Shown piece by piece: positions 18,866 through 57,460 of a stretch of DNA of 64,000 bases. Where the stretch lies: contig JAQGDQ010000732.1 of assembly GCA_030141605.1 (NCBI GenBank), forward strand, positions 1 to 64,000. Reading direction: 5' to 3'. Source of the stretch: Tubiluchus corallicola. Lineage: Eukaryota; Animalia; Priapulida. Position 1 is the stretch's first letter; each line of letters begins with the position of its first letter. A program made the translations under genes and the position numbers. The notes under the pieces were generated by a model. That model did not search any database and was not told the DNA's origin. It worked only from the letters and a program-made list of their open reading frames with translations.

Positions 18866-18980
18866 TTTGTCTTAAGTTTTCTAGGCTGCTGTAAAATTTT
18901 ATCACTTGTATGCCACTCTATACATCGTAAGACGGATCCTCACACGACCTCGGATTCGTTACAATGTTTATTATACTGAC

Positions 18981-29006: not shown

Positions 29007-29335
29007 CTGCTGATTTAACATAACCTGTTAAGCTTTTATTAGTTGTCGATGTAACAGAACTTGTTAAGTTGTCATCAGCTAATGAAACAGCAGAATTTCT
29101 TGTGCTTATGCTGGTTGTCGGTTTGCCAGATGTAGATGAATTGATACTAACTGAGTCGGCTCTTGTTGTGTTTGTCCTCACCGATTGTGTTGGGCTACCG
29201 AGGCCAGCATCTATCATACTAGAAAAAATTATAAAGGTGTTATTAGCTGGTGGAGCAACAGAACTTGTTAAGCTGTTGTTACCTGTTGATGCAACAGAAC
29301 TTGTTAAGCTTTTACTAGATGTTGAAGTAGCAAAA
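29007..29335 (-). pseudogene. Out-of-frame continuation of the gene A mucin exon past the frameshift
   Basis: A shifted frame reads SFATSTSSKSLTSSVASTGNNSLTSSV..TNTTR..INSSTSGKPTTSI, the same repeat family. Candidate phase-1 donors ACAG|GTAACA (29283) and GCAG|GTAATA (29007). Confidence 0.65.
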
Positions 29336-35300: not shown

Positions 35301-35757
35301 GAAACTGTAGTCTGCTGTTGTAGTAACAGAAATTGACAAGGTGTTGTCATCTGCTGAGGCAGCAGAATTTATTGAGCTCACATTAGCTATTAGTTTACCA
35401 GAGGTGGCTGATTTAGTCCTTGAAGACATTGTACTAATAGACCTTGTTGAACTGATGGTGGTTGTTGACGATGGTGTAGGCAAAGGTATGGGCGGGAGTG
35501 GTTTATCTTTGGCCGAAAATGCTGCAATCAGCAACGAAAAAAGCCCTGCGAATAATGATCCGATAAACCCAAAAATACCCTTTAATGGTCCTATTGGTAA
35601 TAATCCTATTGGCCCCAGCCTTGGGAAAGCAATCCCACCACCACCGCCACCACCACCCCCACCATCACCACCCCCATCACCATCAGCATCACCATCGGGA
35701 TCTTTGATATCTTCATCATCATCATTATCATAATCATCATCATCGTCATCGTCGTCG

Positions 35758-35793
<36 letters not shown>

Positions 35794-37483
35794 GTTGTAG
35801 TAGCAACAGTTGTTGTAGAGGTTGCTGTAGAGGTTGTTGTAGAGGTTGCTGTAGTGGAAGAAGTGCTGATAGTGCTGGAAGTTGAGCAGTTACTAGCTGT
35901 AGATGTAATAGAACTTGTGGAGTTGATAATGTTTGTGGTATTTATCATTGTCGTTGTAGCATTAGTAGTCATCATTGTTGTATTCATCATTGTTGTTGTA
36001 GCATTAGTAGTCATCGCTGTTGTATTCATCATTGTTGTTGTAGCATTAGTAGTCATTGCTGTAGTATTCATCATTGTTGTTGTAGCATTAGTAGTCATTG
36101 CTGTTGTATTCATCATTGTTGTTGTAGCATTAGTAGTCATTGCTGTTGTATTCATCATTGTTGTTGTAGCATTAGTAGTCATCGCTGTTGTATTCATCAT
36201 TGTTGTTGTAGCATTAGTAGTCATTGCTGTTGTATTCATCATTGTTGTTGTAGCATTAGTAGTCATTGCTGTTGTATTCACTATTGTTGTTGTAGCATTA
36301 GTAGTCATCGCTGTCGTATTCATCATTGTTGTCGTAGCATTAGTAGTCATCATTGTTGTATTTATCATTGTTGTCGTAGCATTAGTAGTCAATGCTGTTG
36401 TATTCATCATTGTTGTTGTAGCATTAGTAGTCATCGCTGTTGTATTCATCATTGTTGTTGTAGCATTAGTAGTCATCGCTGTTGTATTCATCATTGTTGT
36501 TGTAGCATTAGTAGTCATCGCTGTTGTATTCATCATTGTTGTTGTAGCATTAGTAGTCATCGCTGTTGTATTCATCATTGTTGTTGTAGCATTAGTAGTC
36601 ATCGCTGTTGTATTCATCATTGTTGTTGTAGCATTAGTAGTCATCGCTGTTGTATTCATCATTGTTGTTGTAGCATTAGTAGTCATCGCTGTTGTATACA
36701 TCATTGTTGTTGTAGCATTAGTAGTCATCGCTGTTGTATTCATCATTGTTGTTGTAGCATTAGTAGTCATTGCTGTTGTATTCATCATTGTTGTTGTAGC
36801 ATTAGTAGTCATCGCTGTTGTATTCATCATTGTTGTTGTAGCATTAGTAGTCATCGCTGTTGTATTCATCATTGTCGTTGTAGCATTAGTAATCATTGCA
36901 CTTGTATTCATCATTGTTGTTGTAGCATTAAGAGTCATCGCTGTCGTATTCATCATTGTTGTGTTCATTGCTGTTGTATTCATCATTGTTGTGTTCATCA
37001 TTGTTGTGCTCATCATTGTTGTGTTCATCATTGTTGTGTTCATCATTGTTGTATTCATCATTGTTGTGTTCATCATTGTTGTGTTCATCATTGTTGTGTT
37101 CATCATTGTTGTGTTCATCATTGTTGTGTTCATCATTGTTGTGTTCATCATTGTTGTATTCATCATTGTTGTGTTCATCATTGTTGTGTTCATCATTGTT
37201 GTATTCATCATTGTTGTATTCATCATTGTTGTGTTCATCATTGTTGTATTCATCATTGTTGTATTCATCATTGTTGTGTTCATCATTGTTGTATTTGCTG
37301 ATAATGTAGTTGTTTCTTTTGCAAGGCATAGCATTTTTTCATTTTTAAAATAAATACATTCTTCTGTAAAATCACTGCGGCTAGCGTTAAGAACTTCGTC
37401 AGGATAATAACAATCAACTATTGACTGTCTCCAATTTTGTGTCTTTATCCATAACAGTTGACAGTCGCAAATGAGGCAAAGGC
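29304..37483 (-). CDS. Gene A exon 11: LRRCT plus giant mucin-like Ser/Thr/Asn/Met stalk (~2700 aa), ending at a frameshift-derived stop
   Basis: Acceptor ATTTTCAG|GC at 37484/37483; GLCLICDCQLLW.. runs in frame into the 2676-aa ORF. Confidence 0.88.
29400..35200 (-). repeat. Coding tandem repeat of 522-bp (174 aa) and 543-bp (181 aa) units, ~10-11 copies
   Basis: Anchor ACCAGAGCCA (KQTGSGK) at 29961, 30483, 31026, 31548, 32070, 32613, 33135, 33678, 34221; spacings 522, 543, 522, 522, 543, 522, 543, 543. Confidence 0.95.
35935..36945 (-). repeat. Coding 42-bp repeat (MMNTTAMTTNATTT), ~24 copies
   Basis: Directly visible in DNA and translation. Confidence 0.95.
36946..37293 (-). repeat. Coding 15-bp repeat (NTTMM), ~22-23 copies
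   Basis: Directly visible (TTCATCATTGTTGT[G/A])n. Confidence 0.95.
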
Positions 37484-37996
37484 CTGAAAATATAAGAGAA
37501 ATTGCTATTTATATTTGCATTTAAAAGCATAACTGGTCATAAAGCAATACCAGCTGTTAAGTTTTCCTAAACTTGCAAATATTTTCATTTTCCTTGTTTG
37601 TGTACAATTTGTTCCTGGACAAATTAGATCAAATTTTTTTATGAGAAACCACTCTTGAGAAAATTGTTTAGTGCAAAATACGAGTTTATGACAATTTTCT
37701 AAATTCGAAAAGTTTTATATCTTCAAGCAAAGAAAACAAGAGCCATACTATTCAAAGACTTTTATAAACAATTGCGATGTTTAGAAAATGAGTCTCCTGT
37801 GAAGATATTTGTACTTGTCAGTGCTTCTGCCTTTGCAATTACACACGATTTTCCTTATTGTCACATTTTTAAAATTCGCTATTTGATGCCAGTTTAGGGG
37901 CTGCATTGCATGTAAAACTGGAAAAAAGTAGTATAATAACCACATGCATAGAATGTTATTAAACTGATGAGCAATACAACTCTTTATCATACTGAC

Positions 37997-38830
37997 CTGT
38001 CAATGTAAATGATATATGATTATGCTGAAAATCATATTTGAATATAGGCTCCCTTAATCGTGTTATTATTGGACTGTCATATATGCCAAGAAAATTGAAG
38101 TGCTTGTTGTTTGAGAAGTCAAAATCTAATAAGGCTAGCTTCGCATTATCACGGATAATCAGATCCCTAAGATATACCATTTTGCTGAATGCCCTTTGAT
38201 GTATGAAGAAAAGTCTTTCATTGTAGGCTATTTCCAGTCGATTAAATTCAAATTCACTGTTGTGGATACAGTCCTTTTGCAGCTGCTGCAAATTTGAATA
38301 TCGAATTACGAAACTAATAAGCTGACGTCCTTCTAGAAACCTTTCAGGAAGTTCAGAGTCTGCATAGTAATCGATGTAAAGGTTCCGAAGTTTTACATCT
38401 CGTGGTTGTAATTCTGCTTGCAACCAAATATTGGGTAGTTCCAATTTAGTGTAGCTCTTACAATTTACATCTTTATATTTGGGGCCTACTGAAACATCGC
38501 ATTTTTTTAAACTTAAAGAACTCGTTAAAGTTTTATAATTTGTTGAAGTAAAGGCACTTGTCGAGTTGATGCTGGTTGTTATATTCAGCTCTGACATTGT
38601 GGCGTTTGATGCCATCGCTGTTGTGTTCATCATCGTTGTATTTGCAGGTGACGTTGTTGTTTCTGATGCGAGGCAAAGAAAATTCTCATTTTCAAAATAA
38701 ACACATTCTTCTGTAAAATCACTGCGGCTTGCGTTAAGCACCTCGTCAGGATAATAACAATCAACTATTGACTGTCTCCAATTTTGTGTCTTTATCCATA
38801 ACAGTTGACAGTCGCAAATGAGGCAAAGGC
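37997..38830 (-). CDS. Gene A exon 10: LRRCT-linker-LRR cassette (type B)
   Basis: TTTCAG|GC acceptor, ACAG|GTCAGT donor, 834 nt, phase 1-1, open frame. Confidence 0.9.
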
Positions 38831-39343
38831 CTGAAAATATAAGAGAAATTGCTATTTATATTTGCATTTAAAAGTATAACTGGTCATAAAGCAATACCAG
38901 TTGTTAAGTTTTCCTAAACTTGCAAATATTTTCATTTTCCTTGTTTGTGTACAATTTGTTCCTGGACAAATTAGATCAAAATTTTTTATGAGAAAGCACT
39001 CTTGAGAAAATTGTTTAGTGCAAAATACGAATTTATGACAATTTTCTAAATTCGAAAAGTTTTATATCTTCAAGCAAAGAAAACAAGAGCCATACTATTC
39101 AAAGACTTTTATAAACAATTGCGATGTTTAGAAAATGAGTCTCCTGTGAAGATATTTGTACTTGTCAGTGCTTCTGCCTTTGCAATTACACACGATTTTC
39201 CTTATGTCACATTTTTTAAAATTCGCTATTTGATGCCAGTTTAGGGGCTGCATTGCATGTAAAACTGGAAAAAAGTAGTATAATAACCACATGCATAGAA
39301 TGTTATTAAACTGATGAGCAATACAACTCTTTATCATACTGAC

Positions 39344-40177
39344 CTGTCAATGTAAATGATATATGATTATGCTGAAAATCATATTTGAATATAGGCTCCC
39401 TTAATCGTGTTATTATTGGACTGTCATATATGCCAAGAAAATTGAAGTGCTTGTTATTTGAGAAGTCAAAATCTAATGAGGCTAGCTTTGCATTATCACG
39501 GATAATCAGATCCCGAAGATATACCATTTTGCTGAATGCCCTTTGATGTATGAAGGAAAGTCTTTCATTGTAGGCTATTTCCAGTCGATTAAATTCAAAT
39601 TCACTGTTGTGGATACAGTCCTTTTGCAGCTGCTGCAAATTTGTATAACGTATGATTAGGCTAATAAGCTGACGTCCTTCTAGAAACCTTTCAGGAAGTT
39701 CAGAGTCTGCATAGTAATCGATGTAAAGATTCCGAAGTTTTATATCTCGTGGTTGTAATCCTGCTTGCAACCAAATATTGGGTAGTTCCAATTTAGTGTA
39801 GTTCTTACAATTTACATCTTTATATTTGGCACCTACTGAAACATCGCATTTTGTTAAACTTAAAGAACTCGTTAAAGTTTTATAAGTTGTTGAAGTAAAG
39901 ACACTTGTCGAGTTGATGCTGGTTGTTATATTCAGCTCTGACATTGTGGCATTTGATGCCATCGCTGTTGTATTCATCATCGTTGTATTTGCAGGTGACG
40001 TTGTTGTTTCTGATGCGAGGCAAAGAAAATTCTCATTTTCAAAATAAATACATTCTTCTGTAAAATCACTGCGGCTTGCGTTAAGCACCTCGTCAGGATA
40101 ATAACAATCAACTATTGACTGTCTCCAATTTTGTGTCTTTATCCATAACAGTTGACAGTCGCAAATGAGGCAAAGGC
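39344..40177 (-). CDS. Gene A exon 9: LRRCT-linker-LRR cassette (type B)
   Basis: Same splice sites as exon 10, 834 nt, open frame. Confidence 0.9.
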
Positions 40178-40691
40178 CTGAAAATATAAGAGAAATTGCT
40201 ATTTATATTTGCATTTAAAAGTATAACTGGTCATAAAGCAATACCAGTTGTTAAGTTTTCCTAAACTGGCAAATATTTTCATTTTCCTTGTTTGTGTACA
40301 ATTTGTTCCTGGTCAAATTAGATCAAAATTTTTTATGAGAAAGCACTCTTGAGAAAATTGTTTAGTGCAAAATACGAATTTATGACAATTTTCCAAATTC
40401 GAAAAGTTTTATATCTTCAAGCAAAGAAAACAAGAGCCATACTATTCAAAGACTTTTATAAACAATTGCGATGTTTAGAAAATGAGTCTCCTGTGAAGAT
40501 ATTTGTACTTGTCAGTGCTTCTGCCTTTGCAATTACACACGATTTTCCTTATTGTCACATTTTTTAAAATTCGCTATTTGATGCCAGTTTAGGGGCTGCA
40601 TTGCATGTAAAACTGGAAAAAAGTAGTATAATAACCACATGCATAGAATGTTATTAAACTGATGAGCAATACAACTCTTTATCATACTGAC

Positions 40692-41525
40692 CTGTCAATG
40701 TAAATGATATATGATTATGCTGAAAATCATATTTGAATATAGGCTCCCTTAATCGTGTTATTATTGGACTGTCATATATGCCAAGAAAATTGAAGTGCTT
40801 GTTGTTTGAGAAGTCAAAATCTAATAAGGCTAGCTTCGCATTATCACGGATAATCAGATCCCTAAGATATACCATTTTGCTAAATGCCCTTTGATGTATG
40901 AAGAAAAGTCTTTCATTGTAGGCTATTTCCAGTCGATTAAATTCAAATTCACTGTTGTGGATACAGTCCTTTTGCAGCTGCTGCAAATTTGTATAACGTA
41001 TGATTAGGCTAATAAGCTGACGTCCTTCTAGAAACCTTTCAGGAAGTTCAGAGTCTGCATAGTAATCGATGTAAAGATTTCGAAGTTTTATATCTCGTGG
41101 TTGTAATCCTGCTTGCAACCAAATGCTGGGTAGTTCCAATTTACTGTAGTTTTTACAATTTACATCTTTATATTTGGCACCTACTGAAACATCGCATTTT
41201 GTTAAACTTAAAGAACTCGTTAAAGTTTTATAAGTTGTTGAAGTAAAGACACTTGTCGAGTTGATGCTGGTTGTTATATTCAGCTCTGACATTGTGGCAT
41301 TTGATGCCATCGCTGTTGTGTTCATCATCGTTGTATTTGCAGGTGACGTTGTTGTTTCTGATGCGAGGCAAAGAAAATTCTCATTTTCAAAATAAATACA
41401 TTCTTCTGTAAAATCACTGCGGCTTGCGTTAAGCACCTCGTCAGGATAATAACAATCAACTATTGACTGTCTCCAATTTTGTGTCTTTATCCATAACAGT
41501 TGACAGTCGCAAATGAGGCAAAGGC
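40692..41525 (-). CDS. Gene A exon 8: LRRCT-linker-LRR cassette (type B)
   Basis: Same splice sites as exon 10, 834 nt, open frame. Confidence 0.9.
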
Positions 41526-42036
41526 CTGAAAATATAAGAGAAATTGCTATTTATATTTGCATTTAAAAGTATAACTGGTCATAAAGCAATACCAGTTGTT
41601 AAGTTTTCCTAAACTGGCAAATATTTTCATTTTCCTTGTTTGTGTACAATTTGTTCCTGGTCAAATTAGATCAAAATTTTTTATGAGAAAGCACTCTTGA
41701 GAAAATTGTTTAGTGCAAAATACGAATTTATGACAATTTTCTAAATTCGAAAAGTTTTATATCTTCAAGCAAAGAAAACAAGAGCCATACTATTCAAAGA
41801 CTTTTATAAACAATTGCGATGTTTAGAAAATGAGTCTCCTGTGAAGATATTTGTACTTGTCAGTGCTTCTGCCTTTGCAATTACACACGATTTTCCTTGT
41901 CACATTTTTTAAAATTCGCTATTTGATGACAGTTTAGGGGCTGCATTGCATGTAAAACTGGAAAAAAGTAGTATAATAACCACATGCATAGAATGTTATT
42001 AAACTGATGAGCAATACAACTCTTTATCATACTGAC

Positions 42037-42870
42037 CTGTCAATGTAAATGATATATGATTATGCTGAAAATCATATTTGAATATAGGCTCCCTTAATCG
42101 TGTTATTATTGGACTGTCATATATGCCAAGAAAATTGAAGTGCTTGTTGTTTGAGAAGTCAAAATCTAATAAGGCTAGCTTCGCATTATCACGGATAATC
42201 AGATCCCGAAGATATACCATTTTGCTGAATGCCCTTTGATGTATGAAGAAAAGTCTTTCATTGTAGGCTATTTCCAGTCGATTAAATTCAAATTCACTGT
42301 TGTGGATACAGTCCTTTTGCAGCCGCTGCAAATTTGTATAACGTATGATTAGGCTAATAAGCTGACGTCCTTCTAGAAACCTTTCAGGAAGTTCAGAGTC
42401 TGCATAGTAATCGATGTAAAGATTTCGAAGTTTTATATCTCGTGGTTGTAATCCTGCTTGCAACCAAATACTGGGTAGTTCCAATTTACTGTAGTTTTTA
42501 CAATTTACATCTTTATATTTGGCACCTACTGAAACATCGCATTTTGTTAAACTTAAAGAACTCGTTAAAGTTTTATAAGTTGTTGAAGTAAAGACACTTG
42601 TCGAGTTGATGCTGGTTGTTATATTCAGCTCTGACATTGTGGCGTTTGATGCCATCGCTGTTGTGTTCATCATCGTTGTATTTGCAGGTGACGTTGTTGT
42701 TTCTGATGCAAGGCAAAGAAAATTCTCATTTTCAAAATAAATGCATTCTTCTGTAAAATCACTGCGGCTTGCATTAAGCACTTCGTCAGGATAATAACAA
42801 TCAACTATTGACTGTCTCCAATTTTGTGTCTTTATCCATAACAGCTGACAGTCGCAAATGAGGCAAAGGC
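42037..42870 (-). CDS. Gene A exon 7: LRRCT-linker-LRR cassette (type B)
   Basis: GCTTTCAG|GC acceptor, ACAG|GTCAGT donor, 834 nt, open frame. Confidence 0.9.
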
Positions 42871-43424
42871 CTGAAAGCATAAGAGAAATAACTATTTATA
42901 TTTGTATTTATGAGTTTAACTGGTCACAGAGCAGTACCAGTTGTTAAGTTTTCCTGTGCTTGTAAACTTGCCTTTATTTTCATTTTCTCGTTTGTGTATA
43001 ATTTATTTCTGATCAAATCAAATTGGATTAAATATTTTTTTTATTTTTTTCAAAGGCATTTATAAGCAGACCATTCCTCACTGCGAAAAACTGTATTTAG
43101 GGTTTCAAGGTTTAATTAGATCTTGCTTGCCGTGCTGCAAACAAAATAAAAATACTTTGTTTATATAATATAATCAAAGACTTATGTACGATATGATTAT
43201 GTGATTAAATGTTTTATGAGAGATATATAAGATATAGGAAATTATTATATACTCACAACAGAATTTTACAAACAATTTTCCTGATTATCACATTTTTTAA
43301 AGTTCGCTATTTGATGCCAGTTTAGGGGCTGCATTGCACGTAAAACTGGAAAAAAGTAATATAATAGCCACCTGCGTACAATGTTTTTAAACTGATGAGC
43401 AATACAACTCTTTATCATACTGAC

Positions 43425-44135
43425 CTGTCAATGTAAATGATATATGATCACGTTGAAAATCGTATTTGAATCTAGGCTCCCTTAATCGTGTTATTATTGG
43501 ACTATCGAAAATGCCAAGAAAATTGAAATGCTTGTTATCCGAGAAATCAAAATCCACTGACATTAGCTTTGCATTGCCACGAATATGCAGTTCTCGAAGG
43601 TATACCACTTTGCTGAATGCCTTTGGATGTATGGAGGAAAGCCTGTCATTATAAATTATTTCAAGTTGATTAAATTCAAATTCACTGCTGTGGATGCTAT
43701 CCTTTTGCAGACTCTCCAAATTTGTGTAACGTATGATTAAACTAACAAGCTTATGTCCTAAAAGAAACCCTTGAGGAAGTTTAGAGTCTACATAATATTC
43801 TATGTAAAGACTTCGAATTTTTACATCTCGTTGTTGTAATCCTTCTTGCAACCAAATTTTGGGTAGTAGCCATTTGGTGTAGTTTTTACATATGATGTCT
43901 TTATACGTGAAGGAAAATCTCACTTCACATTCCTTTGGACCAGTCGCCATTGTTGTTGCTGGTGACCTCGTTATTCGTGATACATCACAGACCACAGTGT
44001 CATTTAGACACTCTTCAGTAAAATCGCTGTGACTAGCATTAAATGATTCAACCGGATGATAACAATCAATTAACGATTGTCTCCAGTTGCCTGTCTTTAT
44101 CCACAAAAATTGACAGTCACAAATTAGACAATTGC
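43425..44135 (-). CDS. Gene A exon 6: LRRCT-linker-LRR cassette (type A/B chimera)
   Basis: CTTGTAG|GC acceptor, ACAG|GTCAGT donor, 711 nt, phase 1-1. Confidence 0.9.
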
Positions 44136-44797
44136 CTACAAGTACAAAACAAAAGTATTTATCAAGAAAAATTTGAAAATTTTTCATTTCAGATTTGTTT
44201 TTGCAATTTTTTATGAAGGCTGATATTATCATTTGAAGCTGACTGGTTATAGCTTTCATTGACAGGACCAGTTCAATTTTCCATCATCAGTATTAGCTAA
44301 TTTTTTCTGCGCATTAGTAATATTATAATATCATATTGAAGCCTAATCACCTTCTTTGTCATCGTAAATTTTAATAGTACTGATTTAATATTTTTAAATT
44401 ACACTTTTAGGAACTATTCTTTTTACACTCATTAATCAACAAAAGAATTTGTAATGTGCAACAACCGGGCTTTATGGAGTTTGTACGAAAACCTCGAAAT
44501 GTGAAAAAAGTGAAGAAGCTGCTTTGTGAACACACTTTGTTTGCTGTCCTTTTTGTTATGTTTTGCATCTCGGCAAATTAAATATTCATTTATGGTAAGT
44601 TCCAGTACTTTTTACAAGCAAGCTTTTGAGAGAATTACAAAAAGAATTATAACATTAATAACGTATTCTTAAAATTTGTTTTTTAACACCAAATATTTAT
44701 AAAGACCTGTTTGGCGTGCAAATGTGTGATGAAGGTTGATTGTACCCAGTCAGCTTGAACATTTTTAAATTGGTGAGCTATACATCTGATTACATTT

Positions 44798-45022
44798 CTG
44801 ACCTGTCGAGGTAAAGAGCATATGATCATGTTGAAGATCTTTTTTGAATCCAGGTTCCTTTAGGCGTGTTAATAATGGACTATCATATGCTTTGAGAAAA
44901 CAAAATCTAGTGAGATTAGTTTTGCACTGTCACGAAGATGCAGCTCATGAAGATGTAGAATTTCACTGAATGTCCTTGGATGTATGAAGAGAAGTCTATC
45001 ATTCAGTTTCAGTGCTGTAGAT
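44798..45022 (-). pseudogene. Decayed LRR pseudo-exon resembling the 3' half of gene A exon 1
   Basis: Shares CAGTTTCAGTGCTGTAGAT, GAATTTCACTGAATG, GAAGATGCAGCTCA with exon 1 and keeps a CAG|GTCAG donor, but has internal deletions and no 5' half or acceptor. Confidence 0.8.
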
Positions 45023-46855
45023 TTCCTGTATTTGGAGTTGGTACACCTGATGACATGCTATTGGCTCACCCAAAGTGTTACGAAAACTTAAAACAACTTT
45101 TTGTTATTCAAAATATTTTTTTAAACACATGCAATTTTAATAGTAATTGTAAGACATGACCGGTTGAGAGCAACATACCCATTATTGTGACAACAAGCAT
45201 ATTATCTTAAGCAAATCTGTTAATTAAATAATGATGTGGACATGCTAGTATTCTGGACTATGTTCTGGAAAAAACTCTAAATCAAATTACGAAGAAACAT
45301 CATTATCAGAAATTTTCTAAAACTTTGTTAAGTTTCTTTTGCCTATTGTGTAGATTAATACAAACAACAGGTATTGGCTGTTACTGACCTTGTAATTTTC
45401 CATATTTATTTATACATCTGTGTCTTAATAGCAGTTAGGGTACCGATAGGAAGCTGTTGCAGATATCTTAGCAGCAACAACATATTAATTTTGTAACATT
45501 TTATTGGAATAGTATGAAGCCAATCTTTATATGCATATGGCTTACTTATCATTGTTAGAAACCACACTTGTAAATCAATGACATATCCAATATCCAATTC
45601 TTTAAAAAGCAGTGTTAATTACTGAAGTAGCTACTCTCAAAAACGTAACCTAAAAATAGCAAATATTGATATGCATTTCATGCGAATGATAGAGTGATAT
45701 TTTTGAACAAGTAGTCGACATTAATGTAAAAAAAACTAACAATTTCTGAAAATTATTATTTGGTTGCATGTTGACACTTCCATTTGAGAAACTATACTGT
45801 GACAGAATCACCTGTATTCAGCTGTAATTACATACAGATTGACAATGTAAATGTTGAAGCATGCTTCATTCGTTTGTTAACTAATTCTGCTCTGGGTTAG
45901 TAGATAACTTTTCTTCCAAACAACCATTACCATCAAGGAATGTACGACTCCACTAAGTCTCATTTTTGATTTTTAATTTTAACACAAACAACAATTGCAT
46001 GATGTAACCGATTTGGCCATTTTACACATGCTTTTCAGCATCATTGGCATATTTTCCACTTACAATCAGCAGTAAAATTACCAATTTGAAAAACGTGCTT
46101 TTCACCAAAGCAGGTATGTTAAAATTGCCTTATTTTTTGTTATAATATTGTAATTATAGTGACTACTGTTATAGATGCTTGTTTGTGACTGAAAGAAATG
46201 CACATTCTTAAATATCTGCAGAAGCATGGCTCTCTCTTGTCAAAAGCACAGTTAAACACTGAGGTGGTTGCACGCAAACAAGAAAGCTTTAAATAAATAA
46301 AATGACTTTCCCGTACGTTTTAGACAGCAGGAATATGATATATTTCAGAAAAGCCACTGGCACAAGCAACTAATGTCTTTTCCGAAAACTGATTCTAATG
46401 TATCTTGCCACTTGAATTTGGGTAATTATACTGTGAAGAAGCGATTCTATTCAGCAATTGTAAGACAATGCTGATTGGTGCACAATCTTGCTGTGCTGAG
46501 TTTCTATTGGAATTTGCAAATTTGAGAAAGATAAATAGGCTGCACCGGGAACACTTTTGTTTATTAGTTTTTTTAATAAATTCCACGTATAAATAAATTA
46601 TATCTTTATAATTTGTTTTCAGGAAATTATATCATAAGACCTTATAAGCTGATACTACTTTCTGCTGATAAACTATTACGAGTTTGGCAATATAAGGAAC
46701 GTGACATCACTATCACCTGTTCAAAAAAAATTTGTTTGTTGATGCAAAATTGCTAGGCCTGGATAGCGCACGAAAGTACGATAAGTGTAGGCCAAAAGCA
46801 ACCTACTGAGAATGTTATTAAATTAGCTAGCAATCCTCCACTTTAACATACTTAC

Positions 46856-47572
46856 GTTTCAAGGTGAACGATATATGATCATGTTGAAAATCGTATTTGA
46901 ATCTAGGCTCCTTTAGTCGTGTTATTGGACTATCGTAAATGCCAAGAAAATTGAAATGCTTGTTATCTGAGAAATCAAAATCCACTGACATTAGCTTTGG
47001 GTTGCCACGAATATGCAGTTCTCGAAGGTATATGACTTTGCTGAATGCCTTTGGATGTATGAAGTAAAGTCTGTCATTATAAATTATCTCAAGTCGATTA
47101 AATTCAGATTCACTGCTGTGGATGCTATCCTTTTGCAGTCTCTCCACATTTGTATAACGCATGATTAAACTAATAAGCTTATGCCCTAAAAGAAACCCTT
47201 CAGGGAGTTCAGAGTCTACATAATATTCAATGTAAAGACATCGAATTTTTACATCTCGTTGTTGTAATCCTTCTTGCAACCAAATTTTGGGTAGTAACCA
47301 TTTAGTGTAGTTTTTACATATGATGTCTTTATATGTGATGGAAAACCTCACTTGACATTCTTTTGGACTTGAAAAACCTGTCACCATAGTTGTTACTGGT
47401 GATGTCGTCGTTCGTGATACATCACAGGCCACAGTGTCATTTAGACACTCTTCAGTAAAATCGCTACGACTAGCATTAAACACTTCAACGGGATGATAAC
47501 AGTCAATTAACGATTGTCTCCAGTTGCGTGTCTTTATCCACAAAAGTTGACAGTCACAAATTAGACAATTGC
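46856..47572 (-). CDS. Gene A exon 5: LRRCT-linker-LRR cassette (type A)
   Basis: CTTTTAG|GC acceptor, AAAC|GTAAGT donor, 717 nt, phase 1-1. Confidence 0.9.
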
Positions 47573-49698
47573 CTAAAAGTAGAAAATAAAAGTATTTATC
47601 AAGAAAAATTTGAAGATTTTTCGTTTTTGATTTAGTTTTGCAATTTTTTATAAAATTGTCAAGGCTAATACCATCATTTGAAGTTAAATAGCTATAGCTG
47701 ACACTGACAGGAACACTTCAAATTTCCATCCACATTTTGAGCTACTTTTTTGCTCATTAGTAATATTGTATCCTTCTAATGAAAAAGACTTCTTGAAGCT
47801 CGCATCTCCTTTGTCATTATGCATATATTTTAGATTGTTTGAAATTTCGACAGTATTGATTCAATATTATGAAACGAAACTTTTGGGAACTATCCTTCTT
47901 GCACACTTTTATGAACTTTAGCTGGATATAGAGTAATATTTCCATTATAACTACCTGCCCTATAGTAAACATTTCTTGTATTTGGAGTTGGTACACATGG
48001 TATGATCAATGAGCAACATACACGTTATTGTGACAACAAGCATATTATCTTAAGCAAATCTGTTAATTAAATGGTGTGGACATGCTAGCATTCTGGACTA
48101 TCTTCTGGAAAAAGCTTTAAACCAAAGTACAGAGAAACATCATCATCAGAAACGTCTAAACTTTGTTAATTTTCTTTTGCCTATTGTGTAAATTAATACA
48201 AACAACAGGTACTGGCTGTTACTGACTTTGTAATTTTCCATATTTATTTATACATCTGTGTCTTAATAGCAGTTATGGTACCGATAGAAAGCTACTGCAG
48301 ATATCTCAGCAGTAACAACATATTAATTTTGTAACATTTTATTGTAATTATATGAAGCCAATCTTTATATGCATATGACTTTCTTATCATTGTTAGAAAC
48401 CACACTTGTAAATCAATGACCCATCCAATATACAATTCTTTAAAAAGCAGTGTTAATTACTGAGGCAGCTACTCTCAAAAACGTAACCTTAAAATGGCAA
48501 ATATGGATATACATTTTATGCGAATGATAGAGTGATATTTTTGAAGAAGTAGTCGACATTAATGCAAAACCAACTAACAATTTCTGAAAATTATTATTTG
48601 GTTGCATGTTGACACTTCCATTTGAGAAACTATACTGTGACAGAATCGCCTGTATTCAGCTGTAGTTACATACTGATTGACAATATAAATGTTGAAGCAT
48701 GCTTCATTCGGTTGTTAACTAATTCTGTTCTGGGTTAGTAGATAACTTTTTCTTCCAAACAACCATTACCATAGAGGAATGTACGACTCCACTAAGTCTC
48801 ATTTTTGATTGATTGGTTTTTAATTTTAACAAAAACAACTATTGCATGATGTAACCGATTTGGCCATTTTACACATGCTTTTAAGCACCATTGGCATATT
48901 TCCGACTTACAATCAGCAGTAAAATTACCAATTTGAAAAACGTGCTTTTCACCAAAGCAGGTATGTTAAAATTGCCTTATTTTTTGTTATAATAATGTAA
49001 TTATAGCGACTATTGTTATATATGCTTGTTTGTGACTGAAAGAAATGCACATTCTTAAATATCTGCAGAAGCATGGCTCTCTCTTGTGAAAAGCACAGTT
49101 AAACACTGAGGTGGTTGCACGCAAACAAGAAAGCTTTAAATAAATAAAATGACATTCCCGTACGTTTTAGACAGCAGGAATATGATATATTTAAGAAAAT
49201 CCATTGCCACAAATGGCTAATGACGTTTCCGAAAACTGATTCTATTGTATCTTGCCACTTACATTTAGGTAATTATACTGCGAAGAAACGATTCTATACA
49301 GCGATTGTATGACAATGCTGACAGGTGCACAGTCTTGCTGTACTGAGTTTCTATTGGACGTTGCAAATTTGAGAAAGATAAATAGGCTGCACCGGAAACA
49401 CATTTCTTTATTAATTTTTTATTAAATTCTACGTATAAATAAATTATATGTTCATAATTGTGTTTTCAGGATATTATACCTTAAGACCTTATAAGTTGCT
49501 TGTACTTTTTGTTGGTAAACTATTAAGAGATTGGAAATATTAGGCACCAGCAGCGCTATCATCGTTCAAAAGTTTTTTGGTTGACGCAAAGTTCCTAGGC
49601 CTGGATAGCGCACAAAAGTACGATACGTGTTGGCCAATAGCTGGCTTCTGAGGACGTTATTAAAATTGGCAACCAATCCTCCACTTTAACATACTTAC

Positions 49699-50415
49699 GT
49701 TTCAAGGTGAACGATATATGATCATGTTGAAAATCATAATTGAATCTAGGCTCCTTTAGTCGTGTTATGGGACTATCATATATGCCAAGAAAATTGAAAT
49801 GCTTGTTAGCTGAGAAATCAAAATCCACTGACATTAGCTTTGCATTGCCACGAATATACAGATCTCGAAGGTATACCACTTTGCTGAATGCCCTTGGATG
49901 TATGGAGGAAAGTCTGTCATTATAAATTATCTCAAGTCGATTAAATTCAGATTCTCTGCTATGGATGCTATCCTTTTGCAGTCTCTCCAAATTTGTATAC
50001 CGTATGATTAAACTAATAAGCTTATGCCCTAAAAGAAACCCTTCAGGAAGTTCAGAGTCTACATAATTATCGATGGAAAGGCTTCGAATTTTTACATCTC
50101 GTTGTTGTAGTCCTTCTTGCAACCAAATTTTTGGTAGTAACCATTTAGTGTAATTTTTACATATGATGTCTTTGTACGTGATGGAAAATCTCACTTCACA
50201 TTCCTTTGGACTTAAAAAACTAGTCGCCACTGTTGTTGCTGATGATCTCGTCGTTCGTGATACATCACAGGCCACAGTGTCATTTAGACACTCTTCAGTA
50301 AAATCGCTACGACTAGCATTAAACACTTCAACCGGATGATAACAATCAATTAACGATTGTCTCCAGTTGCGTGTCTTTATCCACAAAAGTTGACAGTCAC
50401 AAATTAGACAATTGC
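49699..50415 (-). CDS. Gene A exon 4: LRRCT-linker-LRR cassette (type A)
   Basis: CTTGTAG|GC acceptor, AAAC|GTAAGT donor, 717 nt, phase 1-1. Confidence 0.9.
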
Positions 50416-51881
50416 CTACAAGTACAAAATAAAAGTATTTATCAAGAAAAAATGAAGATTTTTCATTTTTGATTTAGTTTTGCAATTTTTCATAAAATTG
50501 TCAAGGCTAATACCATCATTTGAAGTTGAATAGCTATAGCTGACACTGACAGGACCACTTCAAATTTCCATCCACATTTTGAGCTACTTTCTTTGTTCAT
50601 TAGTAATATTGTATCATTCTAATGAGAATGACTTCTTGAAGCTCGCATCTCCTTTGTCATTATGCATATGTTTTAGATTGTTTAAAATTTCGACAGTATT
50701 GATTCAATATTTTGAAACGAAACTTTTGGAAACTATCCTTCTTGCACACATTTATGAACTTTAGCTGGATATAGAGTAATATTTCCATTATAACTAACTG
50801 CCCTATAGCAAAAATTTCCTGTATTTGGAGTTGGTATACCTGATGACATGCTGTTGGCTCACCCAAAGTGTTACAAAAACTCGAAACAACAATGGTTATT
50901 CAAAATATTTTTTAACACATGCAACTTTAATAGTAATTGTAACACACGACCAGTGGCGACTGCACGACTCCACCAAGACTCATTTTTGATTTACTTGTTT
51001 TTTTATTTTAACAAAAACAACAATTGCATGATGTAACTGACTTTGGCATTTTAAACATGCTTTTAAGCACCATTGTCGTATTTTCGACTTACAATCAGCA
51101 GTTAAATTACCAATTTGAAAAACGTACTTTTCACCAAAGTGCACATTTTAACATTGTTTTATTTCTTTGTTATAATATTGTAATTCTAGGGACTGTTGTT
51201 ATATATGCTTGTTTGTGACTGAAAGAAATGCACATTCTTAAATATCTGCAGAAGCATGACTCTCTCTTGTGAAAAGCACAGTTAAGCACTGGGGTGGTTG
51301 CACGCAAACAAGAAAGCTTTAAATAAATAAAAAGACTTTCCCGTACGTTTTAGACAGCAGGAATATGATATATTTAAGAAAAGCCACTGGCACAAGCGGC
51401 TAATGACTTTTCCGAAAACTGATTCTAATGTATCTTGCCACTTGAATTTGGGTAATTATACTGTGAAGAAGCGATTCTATTTAGCAATTGTATGACAATG
51501 CTGACAGGTGCACAGTCTTGCTGTACCGTGTTGTTATTGGAATTTACAAATGTGAGAAAGATAAATAGGCTGCACCGGAAACACATTTCTTTATTAATTT
51601 TTTATTAAATTCTACGTATAAATAAATAATATGTTCATAATTTGTTTTCAGGAAATTATATCATAAGACCTTATAAGCTGATACTACTTTCTGCTGATAA
51701 ACTATTACGAGTTTGGTAATATAAGGAACGTGACATCACTATCACCTGTTCAAAAATTTGTTTGTTGACGCAAAATTGCTAGGCCTAGATAGCGCACGAA
51801 AGTACGATAAGTGTAGGCCAAAAGCAACGTACTGAGAATGTTATTAAATTGGCTAGCAATCCTCCACTTTAACATACTTAC

Positions 51882-52589
51882 GTTTCAAGGTGAACGATAT
51901 ATGATCATGTTGAAAATCGTGTTTGAATCTAGGCTCCTTTAGTCGTGTTATTGGACTATTGTAAATGCCAAGAAAATTGAAATGCTTGTTATCTGAGAAA
52001 TCAAAATCCACTGACATTAGCTTTGGGTTGCCACGAATATACAGTTCTCGAAGGTATATGACTTTGCTGAATGCCTTTGGATGTATGAAGGAAAGTCTGT
52101 CATTATAAATTATCTCAAGTCGATTAAATTCAGATTCACTGCTGTGGATGCTATCCTTTTGCAGCCTCTCCAAATTTGTGTAACGTATGATTAAACTAAC
52201 AAGCTTATGTCCTAAAAGGAACCCTTCAGGAAGTTTAGAGTCTACATAATATTCAATGTAAAGACTTCGAATTTTTACATCTCGTCGTTGTAATCCTTCT
52301 TGCAACCAAATTTTGGGTAGTAGCCATTTGGTGTAGTTTTTACATATGATGTCTTTATACATGAAGGAAAATCTCACTTCACATTCCTTTGGACCAGTCG
52401 CCATTGTTGCTGCTGGTGACCTCGTCGTTCGTGATACATCACAGGCCACAGTGTCATTTAGACACTCTTCAGTAAAATCACTACGACTAGCATTAAACAC
52501 TTCAACCGGATGATAACAGTCAATTAACGATTGTCTCCAATTGCGTGTTTTTATCCATAAAAGTTGACAGTCACAAATGAGACAATTGC
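51882..52589 (-). CDS. Gene A exon 3: LRRCT-linker-LRR cassette (type A)
   Basis: CTTGTAG|GC acceptor, AAAC|GTAAGT donor, 708 nt, phase 1-1, frame open from GNCLICDCQLLW. Confidence 0.9.
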
Positions 52590-54695
52590 CTACAAGTACA
52601 AAACAAAACTATTTATAAAAAAAATTTGAAAATTTTTCATTTTTGATTTAGTTTTGCAGTTTTTTATAAACTTGTCAAGGCTAATATCATCATTTGAAGT
52701 TGAATAGCTATAGTGGGCACTGACAGGACCACTTCAAATTTTCATCCACATTTTGAGCTACCTTTTTGTTCATTAATAATATTGTATCATTCTAATGAGA
52801 AAGTCTTCTTGAAGCTCGCATCTCCTTTGTCATTATGCATATATTTTAGATTGTTTGAAACTTCGATAGTATTGATTCAATATTTTGAAACGAAACTTTT
52901 GGGAACTATCCTTCTTGCACACTTTTATGAACTTTAGCTGGATATAGAGTAATATTTCCATTATAACTACCTGCCCTATAGTAAACATTTCTTGTATTTG
53001 GAGTTGGTACACATGGTATGATCAATGAGCAACATACACGTTATTGTGACAACAAGCATATTATCTTAAGCAAATCTGTTAATTAAATGGTGTGGACATG
53101 CTAGCATTCTGGACTATCGTCTGGAAAAAGCTTTAAACCAAAGTACAGAGAAACATCATCATCAGAAACGTCTAAACTTTGTTAATTTTCTTTTGCCTAT
53201 TGTGTAGATTAATACAAACAACAGGTACTGGCTGTTACTGACTTTGTAATTTTCCATATTTATTTATACATCTGTGTCTTAATAGCAGTTATGGTACAGA
53301 TAAGAAGCTACTGCAGATATCTCAGCAGTAACAACATATTAATTTTGTAACATTTTATTGTAATTATATGAAGCCAATCTTTATATGCATATGGCTTTCT
53401 TATCATTGTTAGAAACCACACTTGTAAATCAATGACATATCCAATATCCAATTCTTTAAAAAGCTGTGTTAATTACTGAAGTATCTACTCTCAAAAACGT
53501 AACCTTAAAATAGCAAATATGGATATGCATTTCATGCGAATGATAGAGTGATATTTTTCAACAAGTAGACGACATTAATGCAAAACCAACTAACAATTTT
53601 TGAAAATTATTATTTGGTTGCATATTGACACTTCCAGTTGAGAAACTATACTGTGACAGAATCGCCTGTATTCAGCTGTAGTTACATGCTGATTGACAAT
53701 GTAAATGTTGAAGCATGCTTCATTCGGTTGTTAACTAATTCTGTTCTGGGTTAGCAGATAACTTTTCTTCCAAGCAACCATTACCATTGAGGAATGTACG
53801 ACTCCACTAAGTCTCATTTTTGATTTATTGGTTTTTAATTTTAACAAAAACAACAATTGCATGATGTAACCGATTTGGCCATTTTACACATGCTTTTAAA
53901 CATCATTGGCATATTTTCGTCTTACAATCAGCAGTAAAATTACCAATTTGAAAAGCGTGCTTTTCACCAAAGCAGGCATGTTAAAAGTGCCTTATTTTTT
54001 GCTATAATATTGTACTTATAGTGACTGTTGTTTTATATGCTTGTTTGTGACTGAAAGAAATGCACATTCTTAAATATCTGCAGAAGCATGACTCTCTCTT
54101 GTGAAAAGCACAGTTAAACACTGGGGTGGTTGCACGCAAACAAGAAAGCTTTAAATAAATAAAATGACTTTCCCGTACGTTTTAGACAGCAGAAATATGA
54201 TATATTTACGAAAAGCCACTGGCACAAGCGGCTAATGACTTTTCTGAAAACTGATTCTATTGTATCTTGCCACTTGCATTTGGGTAATTATACTGTGAAG
54301 AAGCGATTCTATTCAGCGATTTATATGACAATGCTGAGAGGTGCACAGTCTTGCTGTACTGAGTTTCTATTGGACGCTGCAAATTTGAGAAAGACAAATA
54401 GGCTGCACCGGAAACACATTTCTTTATTTATTTTTTATTAATTTCCACGTATAAATAAATTATATCTTTATAATTTGTTTTCAGGAATTTATATCATAAG
54501 ACCTTATAAGCTGATACTACTTTCTGCTGATAAACTATTACGAGTTTGGTAATATAAGGAACGTGACATCACTATCACCTGTTCAAAAATTTGTTTGTTG
54601 ATGCAAAATTGCTAGGCCTGGATAGCGCAGGCCAAAAGCAAACTACTGAGAATGTTATTAAATTGGCTAGCAATCCTCCACTTTAACATACTTAC

Positions 54696-55409
54696 GTTCC
54701 AAGGTGAACGATATATGATCATGTTGAAAATCATACTTGAATCTAGGCTCCTTTAGTCGTGTTATGGGACTATCGTAAATGCCAAGAAAATTGAAATGCT
54801 TGTTATTTGAGAAATCAAAATCAACTGACGTTAGCTTTGCATTGCCTCGAATATACAGATCTCTAAGGTATATCACTTTGCGGAATGCCCTCGAATGTAT
54901 GGAGGCAAGCCTGGCATTATGAATTATTTCCAGTCGATTAAATTCAGATTCTCTGCTATGGATGCTATCCTTTTGCAGTCTCTCCAAATTTGTATACCGT
55001 ATGATTAAACTAATAAGCTTATGCCCTAAAAGAAACCCTTCAGGAAGTTCAGAGTCTACATAATTATCGATGTAAAGACTTCGAGTTTTTACATCTCGTT
55101 GTTGCAATCCTTCTTGAGACCAAATTTTGGGTAGTAACCATTTAGTGTAGTTTTTACATATAATATCTTTATACTTGACAGCAAATCTCACTTCACACGC
55201 TCCTGGACTCGTAGAAAATGTTGTCGCCATTGATGTAGGTGGCGGCGTTCGTGATACAGCACAAACTACAGCGTCGTTTACGCATTCTTCGGTAAAATCA
55301 CTGCGACTAGCATTAAATACTTTAAAGGGATGATAACAATCAATTACTGATTGTCTCCAGTTGTGTGTCTTTATCCACAAAAGTTGACAGTCACAAATTA
55401 AACAATTGC
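54696..55409 (-). CDS. Gene A exon 2: LRRCT-linker-LRR cassette (type A)
   Basis: CTTGCAG|GC acceptor, GAAC|GTAAGT donor, 714 nt, phase 1-1. Confidence 0.9.
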
Positions 55410-56883
55410 CTGCAAGTATAAAAGAAAACTATTCATTGTGAAAAATTTGAAGAATTTTCATTGATGATTTGATTTTATGAAATTGTCAAGGCTGATTTCA
55501 AGGTTGAATAGCTATAGCCTGCACTGACACTGAGGTTTCCATCTCCACTCCAGTTTTCCATCCACAGAATAAGCTACTTTTTTCTGTGCACTAGTAATAT
55601 TGTGTCATTCCAATAAGAAAGACTACTTGAAGCTCGCGTCATCTTTTTTGTCATTATGTATTGATTTTAGATGAGTTTGAATTGTTGTAAGTATTGATTC
55701 AATATTTTGAAATGAAACTTTTGGGAACTATCCTTCTTGCACATATTAATCCATTTTTGCTGGACATACTGTAATATTTCGTTATAAATGTCATACTGCA
55801 GCACAAATTTCTTATGTTGGGAGTTGGTGGCTTGTGACATGGCTATCTAGTGATTCAAAGTATTGTAAAAACTTACAATAACTTTTACAATTCCAGACAT
55901 TTTTTGATACACGTGCATTTTTACCTGTAATTGTAAGGCATGACCAGTTGCAAGCAGCATACACATTATTGTGGCAACAAGCACATTATCTTAAGCAAAG
56001 CTGTTAATTAAATAATGATGCGGACATTCTAGTATTTAGAACTGTGTTTAGAAAAGATACATCATCACCAGAAACTTCGTAAACTTTGTTAAATTATTTT
56101 TGCCTAATGCGTAGTTTATTACAAACAACAGGTGCTGGCTGTTACTGATTTCACAATTTTTCATTTTATTTATATATCTGTGTCTAAAACGCAACTATGG
56201 TACCGATTGAAAGCTGCTGCAATCATTTAGAGCAGCAACGATATAATATTTTTTTAAAAATTTATTTTAATTACATGAAGCCAAATTGTATATGCATATG
56301 CCTTTCTTGGGATTGAAAGAAATCACTTATCTACATGCCATTACATGTCCATCTCCCTGAAAAGCAGCATTAGGCACTGAAGTAGCCACTCTCAAAAAAG
56401 TAGCCTTGGAATTGAAAATATGTATTGACTTTGACATACATTTTACAGATTTGACAAAATTATATCGGTCAACTTTAATGCATTCATTTCTGTTTTTGAG
56501 AATTCTTATTTGGTTGCACTTTGCTACTTCCATTTGAGTAATTATTCTGTGAGAGAATCGTCTCAATTCAGGAGAATTAAAGACTGTTGCACATCACAAA
56601 TTCTTTTGGTGACGAGTTTTTATGAAAACTTCGAAATATAAGCAAAGTTAAGAGGTGGCATGCGTTGTTAAATTATTTTGTTTACTAAGCTTTTAATAAT
56701 CTTTGCATATAGACAACTTATACATTAATTTTTGTTTGATCTGTAGTCTTTTTTTCACGCTAATTTTTGCGAGGTTTACGAAAAGTATAATATTAATAAA
56801 GCATTTTCAAAAACTACTTGTTTACACCAAATATTTGCAAAGAGAAATAAATTTGAAGTGGGAGAACAATATATCTTACTGAC

Positions 56884-57460
56884 CTGTCAAAGTAAACGAT
56901 ATATGATCATTTTGAAAATCGTATTTGAATCTAGGCTTCTTTAGTCGTGTTATTGAGCTATCGTAAATGCCAAGGAAATTGAAATGCTTGTTATTTGAGA
57001 AATCAAAATCCAGTGAAATTAGTTTTGCGTTGCCGCGAAGATGCAGCTCACGAAGATATAGAATTTCACTGAATGCCTTTGGATGTATGAAGAGAAGCTT
57101 ATCATTATCAGTTATTTCCAGTCGATTAAACTCAGTTTCAGTGCTGTAGATACAATTTTCTCCAAGGGAACTCAAACTTGTACGCCGAACAATTAAATCA
57201 AGAAGCTTACGTCCAAAAAGAAACCCTTCAGGAAGTTCAGAGTCTATATAATAATCAATGAATAGACTTCGAATTTTTACATCTCGTTGCTGTAAACCTT
57301 CTTGCAACCAAATTTTGGGTAGTTCCACTTTAGTGTAGTTTTTACATGCTACATCTTTATACTTGGCAGCAAATCTCACTTCACATTCTGAAAGCATCTG
57401 GACGCAAGGATTATATAATACAATCAAAAGACATACCACGGCAAAAATAATCAGAAACAT
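56884..57460 (-). CDS. Gene A exon 1: signal peptide plus LRRNT and ~5 LRRs
   Basis: ATG at 57460, leader MFLIIFAVVCLLIVLYNPC, LRRs (IHPKAFSEILYLRELHLRGN), phase-1 donor ACAG|GTCAGT at 56884/56883. Confidence 0.9.

What the first reader, a model, noticed from the sequence alone, without database searches (positions are those of the whole stretch)
37483..57460. Candidate novel system: tandem array of interchangeable phase-1 LRR cassette exons
Seen: nine intact internal exons (714, 708, 717, 717, 711, 834 x4 nt), all multiples of 3 and phase 1-1. Each begins with the LRRCT cap for the previous module and ends with a new LRRNT plus LRRs. Any exon can therefore be skipped and the upstream solenoid is still capped by the next acceptor, including the final mucin exon. 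Full inclusion gives 10 LRR domains in a ~5200-aa chain; independent skipping allows up to 2^9 = 512 combinations. Established: Dscam diversifies by exon arrays and agnathan VLRs by LRR cassettes on a stalk. Inference: an invertebrate LRR receptor diversified by splicing and/or exon copy number, or a multivalent adhesin. I do not recognise a described gene with this layout.
Basis: partly seen in the sequence, partly recalled or inferred. Interest (0 to 1): 0.9.

Follow-up and report, generated by a model that had tools for sequence, protein, structure and literature searches.

The report
Ten-headed LRR array on mucin stalk
An animal gene has copied one leucine-rich-repeat binding module, intron included, into ten intact tandem heads ahead of a very long, likely sugar-coated stalk; it likely works as a many-handed binder whose head count likely differs between chromosomes, and whether cells also vary it by skipping exons is untested.

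Summary
There are nine internal exons (714, 708, 717, 717, 711, 834 x4 nt), all GT-AG and phase 1-1, and they join into a 5,219-aa ORF with ten LRR modules.

The phase symmetry needs no splicing design. Single-module paralogues in the same window have the same phase-1 intron, and the repeated unit is exon plus intron. Each internal exon fuses the start of an ancestral exon 2 (LRRCT, stalk) to an ancestral exon 1 minus its signal peptide.

All 45 module pairs show dN/dS of 0.08-0.44. The predicted binding face is not hypervariable, and I found no convincing docking/selector pairing. DNA contigs hold further unit types absent from the assembly, and another sample has a diverged chimeric exon. 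So the array is real and probably varies in copy number.

Best reading: a DMBT1-like multivalent LRR-mucin whose valency is set in the DNA. Combinatorial skipping is possible but has no RNA support here.

The parts
56884..57460 (-). Gene A exon 1: predicted signal peptide (about 24 aa) + LRRNT + about 5-6 LRR strands (module 1); phase-1 donor
   Evidence: hydrophobic N-terminus; Pfam LRR_8 E 4e-4
54696..55409 (-). Internal exon 2 (714 nt, class L): LRRCT + short S/T linker + LRRNT-LRRs
51882..52589 (-). Internal exon 3 (708 nt, class L)
49699..50415 (-). Internal exon 4 (717 nt, class L)
46856..47572 (-). Internal exon 5 (717 nt, class L)
44798..45012 (-). Degenerate, frameshifted LRR-exon remnant inside intron 5 (a dead unit)
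43425..44135 (-). Internal exon 6 (711 nt, class L)
42037..42870 (-). Internal exon 7 (834 nt, class S; longer linker related to the start of the mucin exon)
40692..41525 (-). Internal exon 8 (834 nt, class S)
39344..40177 (-). Internal exon 9 (834 nt, class S)
37997..38830 (-). Internal exon 10 (834 nt, class S)
29304..37483 (-). Giant exon 11 ORF: last LRRCT + about 2,680-aa S/T-rich (45%) tandem-repeat stalk, ending at a premature stop
35511..35792 (-). Poly-Asp run, Gly-rich spacer and an uncharged 23-aa hydrophobic segment (35579-35511; possible membrane-spanning or self-association helix)
   Evidence: Eisenberg mean 0.85 vs 0.75 for the TM exon; no Atlas hit
29330..29345 (-). Site (about 29338) of a 19-nt deletion relative to 4 of the 5 upstream stalk stretches aligned; it shifts the frame and gives the stop at 29304
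   Evidence: contigs of X1, X2 and X4 span it without gaps
28885..29337 (-). Stalk continuation still open in the pre-deletion frame; candidate phase-1 donors at 29283 and 29007; AATAAA at 29040
28301..28411 (-). Predicted transmembrane exon (111 nt, phase 1-1, GC donor), ends in RKRK
27473..27981 (-). Predicted cytoplasmic-tail exon (S/T/P/E-rich 78-nt repeats; no TIR or kinase domain visible), with stop
14489..19554 (-). Single-module paralogue, gene B: signal+LRR (19554-18981) | LRRCT+short stalk (16704-16270) | Ig-like (15440-15072) | TM (14608-14489); all introns phase 1
2121..2748 (-). Diverged paralogue, gene C exon 1 (signal+LRR, about 33% identity), donor at the same position and phase
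58853..58942 (+). Inverted 90-nt copy of part of exon 1 (84/90 identical), 1.4 kb upstream of the ATG

Best explanation
Gene A is a ten-module LRR array formed by tandem copying of an exon-plus-intron unit in an LRR-mucin receptor family, and it likely acts as a multivalent secreted or surface binder whose valency is likely set mainly by DNA copy number rather than by programmed splicing. SHOWN: the one-module family plan (signal-LRR | LRRCT-stalk | TM) in paralogue B; chimeric internal exons (exon-2 start fused to exon 1 just after the signal peptide); duplicated introns; purifying selection on every module; extra unit types in DNA contigs; a 19-nt deletion before the TM exon. INFERRED: unequal crossing-over or conversion builds and turns over the array; most transcripts include most exons; each module folds as its own short capped solenoid on a glycosylated linker; the heads bind a repetitive ligand (microbial surface, matrix or another cell) with avidity; this allele is released from its C-terminal anchor unless an upstream in-frame donor (e.g. 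29420) or the internal hydrophobic segment is used. The ligand and any immune role are unknown.
For: Paralogues B and C share the phase-1 intron, and B's 3 internal exons are also phase 1-1. Exon nt 1-189 (class L) aligns to B exon 2 at about 80%, nt 1-218 (class S) to A exon 11 at 90%, and the LRR part aligns to exon 1 from about 57388, just after the signal peptide. Introns are 87-94% identical among introns 2-5 and 98-99.6% among 7-10. dN/dS is 0.08-0.44 in 45 of 45 module pairs. Variable columns are 16 of 25 on the predicted concave face vs 66 of 143 elsewhere, p=0.13. In X2, single-copy stretches have depth about 250-390, while the class-S unit has about 2,300-2,700, of which 1,356-1,649 carry letters at 42218, 42430 and 42491 absent from all four assembled units. 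X4 shows that other type at depth 13-14.5. X5 (same species label, another study) has a 713-nt contig with the chimeric LRRCT-linker-LRR layout at about 82-86% identity, with an AG acceptor and an unrelated intron. Precedent: in DMBT1, SRCR number at the DNA level, not splicing, sets most isoform length (PMC9038570, passages).
Against: No RNA from this locus was seen, so full inclusion is assumed, not shown. Logan contig depth is not a copy number by the tool's own caveat, table 8 was cut, and the extra units could belong to a paralogous locus: a second, diverged stalk-end contig exists in X1, X2 and X4. The premature stop lies more than 55 nt upstream of later exon junctions, so the allele could be degraded by NMD. 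Exon 2's four-fold sites diverge more than its downstream intron (19-26% vs 6-8%, p<0.001, 3 pairs), and the 6 class-S pairs lean the same way (not significant); gene conversion explains this, but so could intron constraint. No ligand data.
Confidence: 0.6

Rival explanations
1. The array is a splicing-diversified receptor: cells skip subsets of the symmetric exons (or include one of n) to make many isoforms of different valency and head composition.
For: All 9 exons are frame-neutral and caps are interchangeable. Long exons with near-identical splice sites offer competing acceptors. Tandem duplication with introns can create competing RNA structures (PMC6071210, abstract). Splicing of LRR exons is reported in NLRP3 (PMC6642158, abstract), brown-algal ROCOs (PMC11378527, abstract) and crab VLR2 (PMC10045472, abstract and section 17). 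3 of 13 intron-pair duplex tests gave z <= -2.5.
Against: Symmetry is the family default. Modules are under purifying selection and nearly identical within class S. The two strongest duplexes were reached by 1 and 2 of 80 shuffles, and unrelated control pairs reached z -2.4. Inverted repeats are at most 34 nt and of a kind expected in AT-rich DNA. In DMBT1, 4 of 5 long transcripts carried the full genomic number (PMC9038570).
Confidence: 0.15
2. This copy is a recently disabled allele or paralogue: the 19-nt deletion created a premature stop, the mRNA is degraded, and the intact modules reflect earlier selection.
For: The deletion is absent from 4 of the 5 upstream stalk stretches aligned; the old frame stays open for about 150 codons; intact TM and tail exons follow. 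A dead unit lies in intron 5. A second stalk-end sequence exists in the same runs.
Against: All 10 modules are intact, including recent class-S copies with more synonymous than non-synonymous change per site. The deletion is shared by X4, a different sample and study code. An AATAAA at 29040 or an in-frame donor at 29420 could give a stable product.
Confidence: 0.17
3. The near-identical class-S units are an assembly duplication.
For: Units 7-10 are 96.5-99% identical in exons and 98-99.6% in introns. No listed contig spans the stretch laid.
Against: The units differ at about 50 columns in a nested pattern, with a synonymous bias. X2 depth over the unit is several times the single-copy depth and points to more copies than assembled, not fewer. 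Class-L units are 87-95% identical, far beyond assembly error.
Confidence: 0.04

Closest known systems
DMBT1/SALSA/gp340 (PMC9038570; passages read)
   Same: Tandem recognition domains separated by S/T-rich linkers; intragenic copy-number variation; binding depends on domain number; length isoforms once ascribed to splicing but mostly genetic.
   Different: SRCR rather than LRR domains; CUB/ZP C-terminus; no homology. Here the repeat exon is a chimera that splits each domain across an intron.
GPIb-alpha-type eLRR receptors (SS-LRRNT-LRR-LRRCT-TM, PMC2235866 passages; VNTR in the mucin-like macroglycopeptide, PMC1660532 passages and reference title)
   Same: LRR head on a mucin stalk with a TM and a short tail; this is the plan of paralogue B and of ancestral gene A.
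   Different: One head only, and the VNTR is in the stalk rather than in the number of heads; no specific sequence relationship found.
Multi-module eLRR proteins: Lrrc17 (two modules, PMC2235866 table passage); Slit (four modules, recalled); Owenia fusiformis CAH1776630.1 (four LRR-Ig-type blocks by my reading of its sequence, E 7e-4 only)
   Same: Several LRRNT-LRR-LRRCT modules in one chain.
   Different: 2-4 modules, ancient and divergent (Slit, recalled), no giant mucin stalk; here 10 or more recent copies in active turnover.
Dscam1 mutually exclusive arrays (PMC13428168 passages; PMC6071210 abstract)
   Same: Tandemly duplicated homologous exons.
   Different: Dscam exons are alternatives for one slot, chosen by docking/selector pairing. 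Here all exons can be included in series, no such pairing was found, and the exons are not hypervariable.
Agnathan VLRs (PMC13408188, PMC13428168 passages) and crab VLR2 (PMC10045472)
   Same: Capped LRR solenoid on a stalk.
   Different: VLRs are assembled somatically from LRR modules into one variable solenoid with deaminase help; crab VLR2 isoforms are truncations of one solenoid. Here each unit is a whole germline module in an intact ORF.
Sponge aggregation factors (PMC5400394 passages)
   Same: Huge modular extracellular proteins with nearly all introns in phase 1 (154 of 155), for which splicing was proposed as a possible diversifier.
   Different: Calx-beta/VW domains; no homology.

Membership tests
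Extracellular LRR (eLRR) proteins | Signal peptide | tested here: met
   Most hydrophobic 19-mer of the chain is residues 2-20, KD 2.71; same in paralogue B; no dedicated predictor was run
Extracellular LRR (eLRR) proteins | LRR solenoid | tested here: met
   AF2 model; Foldseek TSHR E 5e-4; Pfam LRR_8 below curated cut-off; Atlas LRR clusters
Extracellular LRR (eLRR) proteins | Cys-capped LRRNT/LRRCT | tested here: inconclusive
   Cys pattern and alignment to P0001 support it; no Pfam LRRCT hit; a spliced module was not folded
DMBT1-like tandem-domain binders (works-like) | Tandem recognition domains with S/T linkers | tested here: met
DMBT1-like tandem-domain binders (works-like) | Domain number varies between haplotypes | tested here: inconclusive
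   Extra unit types and depth excess in X2, X4, X5, but unphased contigs; a paralogous locus is not excluded
DMBT1 family (membership) | SRCR, CUB and ZP domains | tested here: not met
   No such Pfam hit in the 9 segments scanned
Dscam-type splicing-diversified receptor | Mutually exclusive or combinatorial exon use in mRNA | not testable with these tools
   No RNA holder listed; X6 contigs gave no junction
Dscam-type splicing-diversified receptor | Docking/selector complementarity | tested here: inconclusive
   nothing convincing; only 240-nt intron ends were tested by duplex energy and no cross-species conservation was available
Dscam-type splicing-diversified receptor | Alternative exons differ at the binding surface | tested here: not met
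   Class S differs at 0-1 of 25 predicted concave positions, class L at 2-8; no enrichment (p=0.13); dN/dS <0.45
Agnathan VLR | Incomplete germline gene completed somatically from single-LRR cassettes | tested here: not met
   The germline ORF is complete and spliceable; units are whole modules
Toll-like receptors | Cytoplasmic TIR domain | tested here: not met
   The predicted tail exon is a low-complexity S/T/P/E repeat ending in a stop; read by eye, not scanned against Pfam

The most novel reading that the evidence does not exclude
A lineage-specific invertebrate LRR receptor family diversifies at three levels in one locus: the number of whole LRR heads differs between haplotypes, combinatorial skipping of frame-neutral self-capping exons tunes valency and head mix per cell, and a frameshift or alternative donor switches between secreted and anchored forms. 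That would be an LRR-based counterpart of Dscam/DMBT1 for immunity or allorecognition.
Probability: 0.12. Interest if true: 0.8.

Novelty: new variant of a known kind. Interest (0 to 1): 0.45.

Why it matters
It shows how a one-head LRR-mucin receptor becomes a ten-head chain: copying across its single LRR/LRRCT intron yields self-capping, frame-neutral exons at no extra cost, and the one-head state sits next door for comparison. The family has almost no database relatives (two single-module proteins), and the array looks polymorphic. Fast-evolving, copy-variable surface binders of this kind are candidates for invertebrate immune or self/non-self loci. It is a clean test of whether symmetric exon arrays are used for splicing diversity or only for valency.

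Tried and rejected
No genome is held for this window, so other family loci and phased haplotypes could not be searched.

No RNA holder was listed. X6 (RNA is a guess) laid 0 contigs on 27930-29760 and 2 short partial matches of diverged family-like sequence on 41670-47990. Neither result bears on expression. X4 and X5 leave parts of the stretch uncovered, which is no proof of absence.

Homologue searches: exon 3 vs longer proteins, 0 of 187 candidates; alignment A1 near length, 2 of 3,031 (P0001 itself and a weak LRR hit); A1 longer, 1 weak hit of 7,650; representatives search, 11 hits, of which only P0001 and P0002 look like true family members by alignment; metagenome contigs, 0 of 213 pattern matches. 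The taxon therefore remains undetermined beyond 'animal, probably invertebrate' (inference from gene structure and domain content).

Docking/selector search: unconvincing. A putative 39-nt micro-exon near 28800 was dropped because it lies in a high-depth interspersed repeat. The four e6 pairs were left out of the exon-vs-intron comparison because intron 6 is not homologous to the long introns. The Atlas gave no hit for the poly-Asp/hydrophobic segment. The Foldseek search of the P0001 model gave eLRR folds but none at E<=0.001.

Literature: searches listed no paper whose title or abstract start describes this layout. The library lacks most subscription papers, and I read no supplements. Earlier scan findings: none by sequence or place; five loosely similar by words.
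Full report
OBSERVATION. On the minus strand, gene A has a first coding exon 57460-56884 and nine internal exons of 714, 708, 717, 717, 711 and 4 x 834 nt, followed by an acceptor at 37483. All ten introns are GT..AG and phase 1, all nine exons are open, and the joined ORF is 5,219 aa. The chance of one such open frame is about 1e-8. The LRR fold is supported by sub-threshold Pfam LRR_8 hits, Atlas LRR clusters, an AlphaFold2 solenoid and a TSH-receptor ectodomain match, E 5e-4. The exon starts align with the C-terminal cap of a natural one-piece relative, P0001.

ORIGIN OF THE LAYOUT. The window holds the one-module state. Paralogue B reads signal-LRR (19554-18981) | LRRCT-short stalk (16704-16270) | Ig-like (15440-15072) | TM (14608-14489). 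Its first intron sits where gene A's introns sit, and all three internal exons are phase 1-1. Paralogue C has the same donor. Each internal exon of A is a chimera. Its first 189 nt (class L, e3-e6; 163 nt in e2) match B exon 2 at about 80%, or its first 218 nt (class S, e7-e10) match A exon 11 at 90%. Its last 500 nt or so match exon 1 from just after the signal peptide. The introns are copied too: 87-94% among introns 2-5 and 98-99.6% among 7-10. A one-intron unit duplicated in frame must give symmetric exons, so the symmetry says nothing about splicing use. A dead unit remains in intron 5, as expected from birth-and-death turnover.

SELECTION. Nei-Gojobori dN/dS between LRR parts is 0.08-0.44 in all 45 pairs, and the caps are almost invariant within a class. 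Predicted concave-face columns vary in 16 of 25 cases vs 66 of 143 elsewhere (p=0.13). Class S differs at 0-1 and class L at 2-8 of the 25 positions (positions were assigned from the LRR pattern and agree with the strands). The modules have therefore been translated and conserved, in three classes (e1; e2-e6; e7-e10). Skipping could alter the number and mix of heads but would not create new binding surfaces. Four-fold sites and introns diverge alike for e3-e5. They do not for e2 (19-26% vs 6-8%), and class S leans the same way without significance. I read this as conversion or breakpoints, but intron constraint is not excluded.

SPLICING SIGNALS. The longest inverted repeats are 28-34 nt at 70-93% complementarity, among 885 pairs. 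In duplex tests of intron ends, 3 of 13 pairs gave z <= -2.5 on 15 shuffles. The two strongest were reached by 1 and 2 of 80 shuffles, and 13 unrelated control pairs reached -2.4. No docking/selector system is evident. No RNA holder was listed, so splicing is untested.

IS THE ARRAY REAL AND VARIABLE? Only contigs were available, and the tool warns that their depth is not a copy number. In X2, single-copy stretches have depth about 250-390, while the class-S unit has about 2,300-2,700. Of this, 1,356-1,649 carries letters at 42218, 42430 and 42491 that none of the four assembled units has, and 405 carries one at 41846 (4 of the 14 listed positions checked were absent from the assembly). X4 (other sample and study code, no species label, so independence is unproven) shows this other type at depth 13-14.5 against about 10 for a unique stretch. 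Two intron junctions in X2/X4 are also absent from the window. X5 (same species label, third study) has a 713-nt contig that reads LRRCT-linker-LRR at about 82-86% identity, with an AG acceptor at the same place and an unrelated intron. The array is therefore not an assembly duplication, and further units exist, either on the other haplotype or at a paralogous locus.

A 19-nt deletion near 29338, relative to 4 of the 5 upstream stalk stretches aligned, shifts the frame and produces the stop at 29304. The old frame stays open to 28885. Beyond lie a 111-nt phase 1-1 TM exon (28411-28301, GC donor), similar to B's, and a tail exon (27981-27473). Contigs of X1, X2 and X4 cross the deletion without gaps, so it is real; a second, diverged stalk end is present in the same three runs. 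Possible outcomes: a secreted chain (AATAAA at 29040), rescue by an in-frame donor such as 29420, anchoring by the internal uncharged 23-aa segment at 35579-35511, or NMD.

MECHANISM. Most likely (0.6) this is a multivalent LRR-mucin binder built and varied by unequal recombination, mostly fully spliced. The rivals are a recently disabled copy (0.17), a splicing-diversified receptor (0.15) and an assembly artefact (0.04). The ligand is unknown, and an immune role is only an analogy.

COMPARISON. It works like DMBT1, where domain number is genetic and 4 of 5 long transcripts carried the full set (PMC9038570, passages), but it is not a member. The ground plan resembles GPIb-alpha-type eLRRs (PMC2235866 and PMC1660532, passages). 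All-phase-1 modular genes are known in sponge aggregation factors (PMC5400394, passages). It fails the VLR test (complete germline ORF) and the binding-surface test for a Dscam-type system. LRR-exon splicing has precedents in NLRP3, algal ROCOs and crab VLR2 (abstracts; section 17 for VLR2), but these alter a single solenoid. Slit's four modules are recalled, not looked up. Homologue searches found only two single-module relatives, and literature searches listed no description of this layout; the library is incomplete and I read no supplements.

VERDICT. A real, unusual and apparently undescribed ten-head LRR-mucin gene. It is a new variant of a known kind (tandem-domain, copy-variable binder), and the 512-isoform idea is unproven. 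Interest 0.45.

Noticed in passing
window 58853-58942 (+): Inverted 90-nt copy of exon 1 sequence (84/90 identical; 61/75 to 67/81 to the other exons), 1.4 kb upstream of the ATG; could form a hairpin with exon 1 if co-transcribed.
   Followed up: partly
window 35792-35511 (-): Poly-Asp run, Gly run and an uncharged hydrophobic helix-like segment inside the stalk; possible cation-binding or membrane/self-association element; no Atlas hit.
   Followed up: partly
window 14489-19554 (-): Paralogue B has an Ig-like exon that gene A lacks; its cytoplasmic exon(s) were not traced.
   Followed up: partly
window 2121-2748 (-): Diverged paralogue C exon 1; its LRRCT exon was not seen in the remaining 2.1 kb of the window.
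   Followed up: no
window 29336-29528 (contigs of X1, X2, X4): A second, about 87% identical stalk-end sequence exists in all three DNA runs: another allele or paralogue of gene A, whose frame is unknown.
   Followed up: no
window 28240-28295 and 28740-28811: Short high-copy interspersed repeats flanking the TM exon (depth spikes and loose ends).
   Followed up: no
window 44436-44463 and 56585-56612: 28-nt, 93% inverted pair between introns 5 and 1, the most complementary pair listed; possibly a small mobile-element remnant.
   Followed up: no
window 3681-3994, 12125-12259, 18371-18853, 26100-26563: Minisatellites with 21-, 27-, 32- and 32-nt units, between genes or in introns.
   Followed up: no
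window 23636-24109 (-): Degenerate ORF that looks like a reverse-transcriptase fragment (by eye; not scanned).
   Followed up: no
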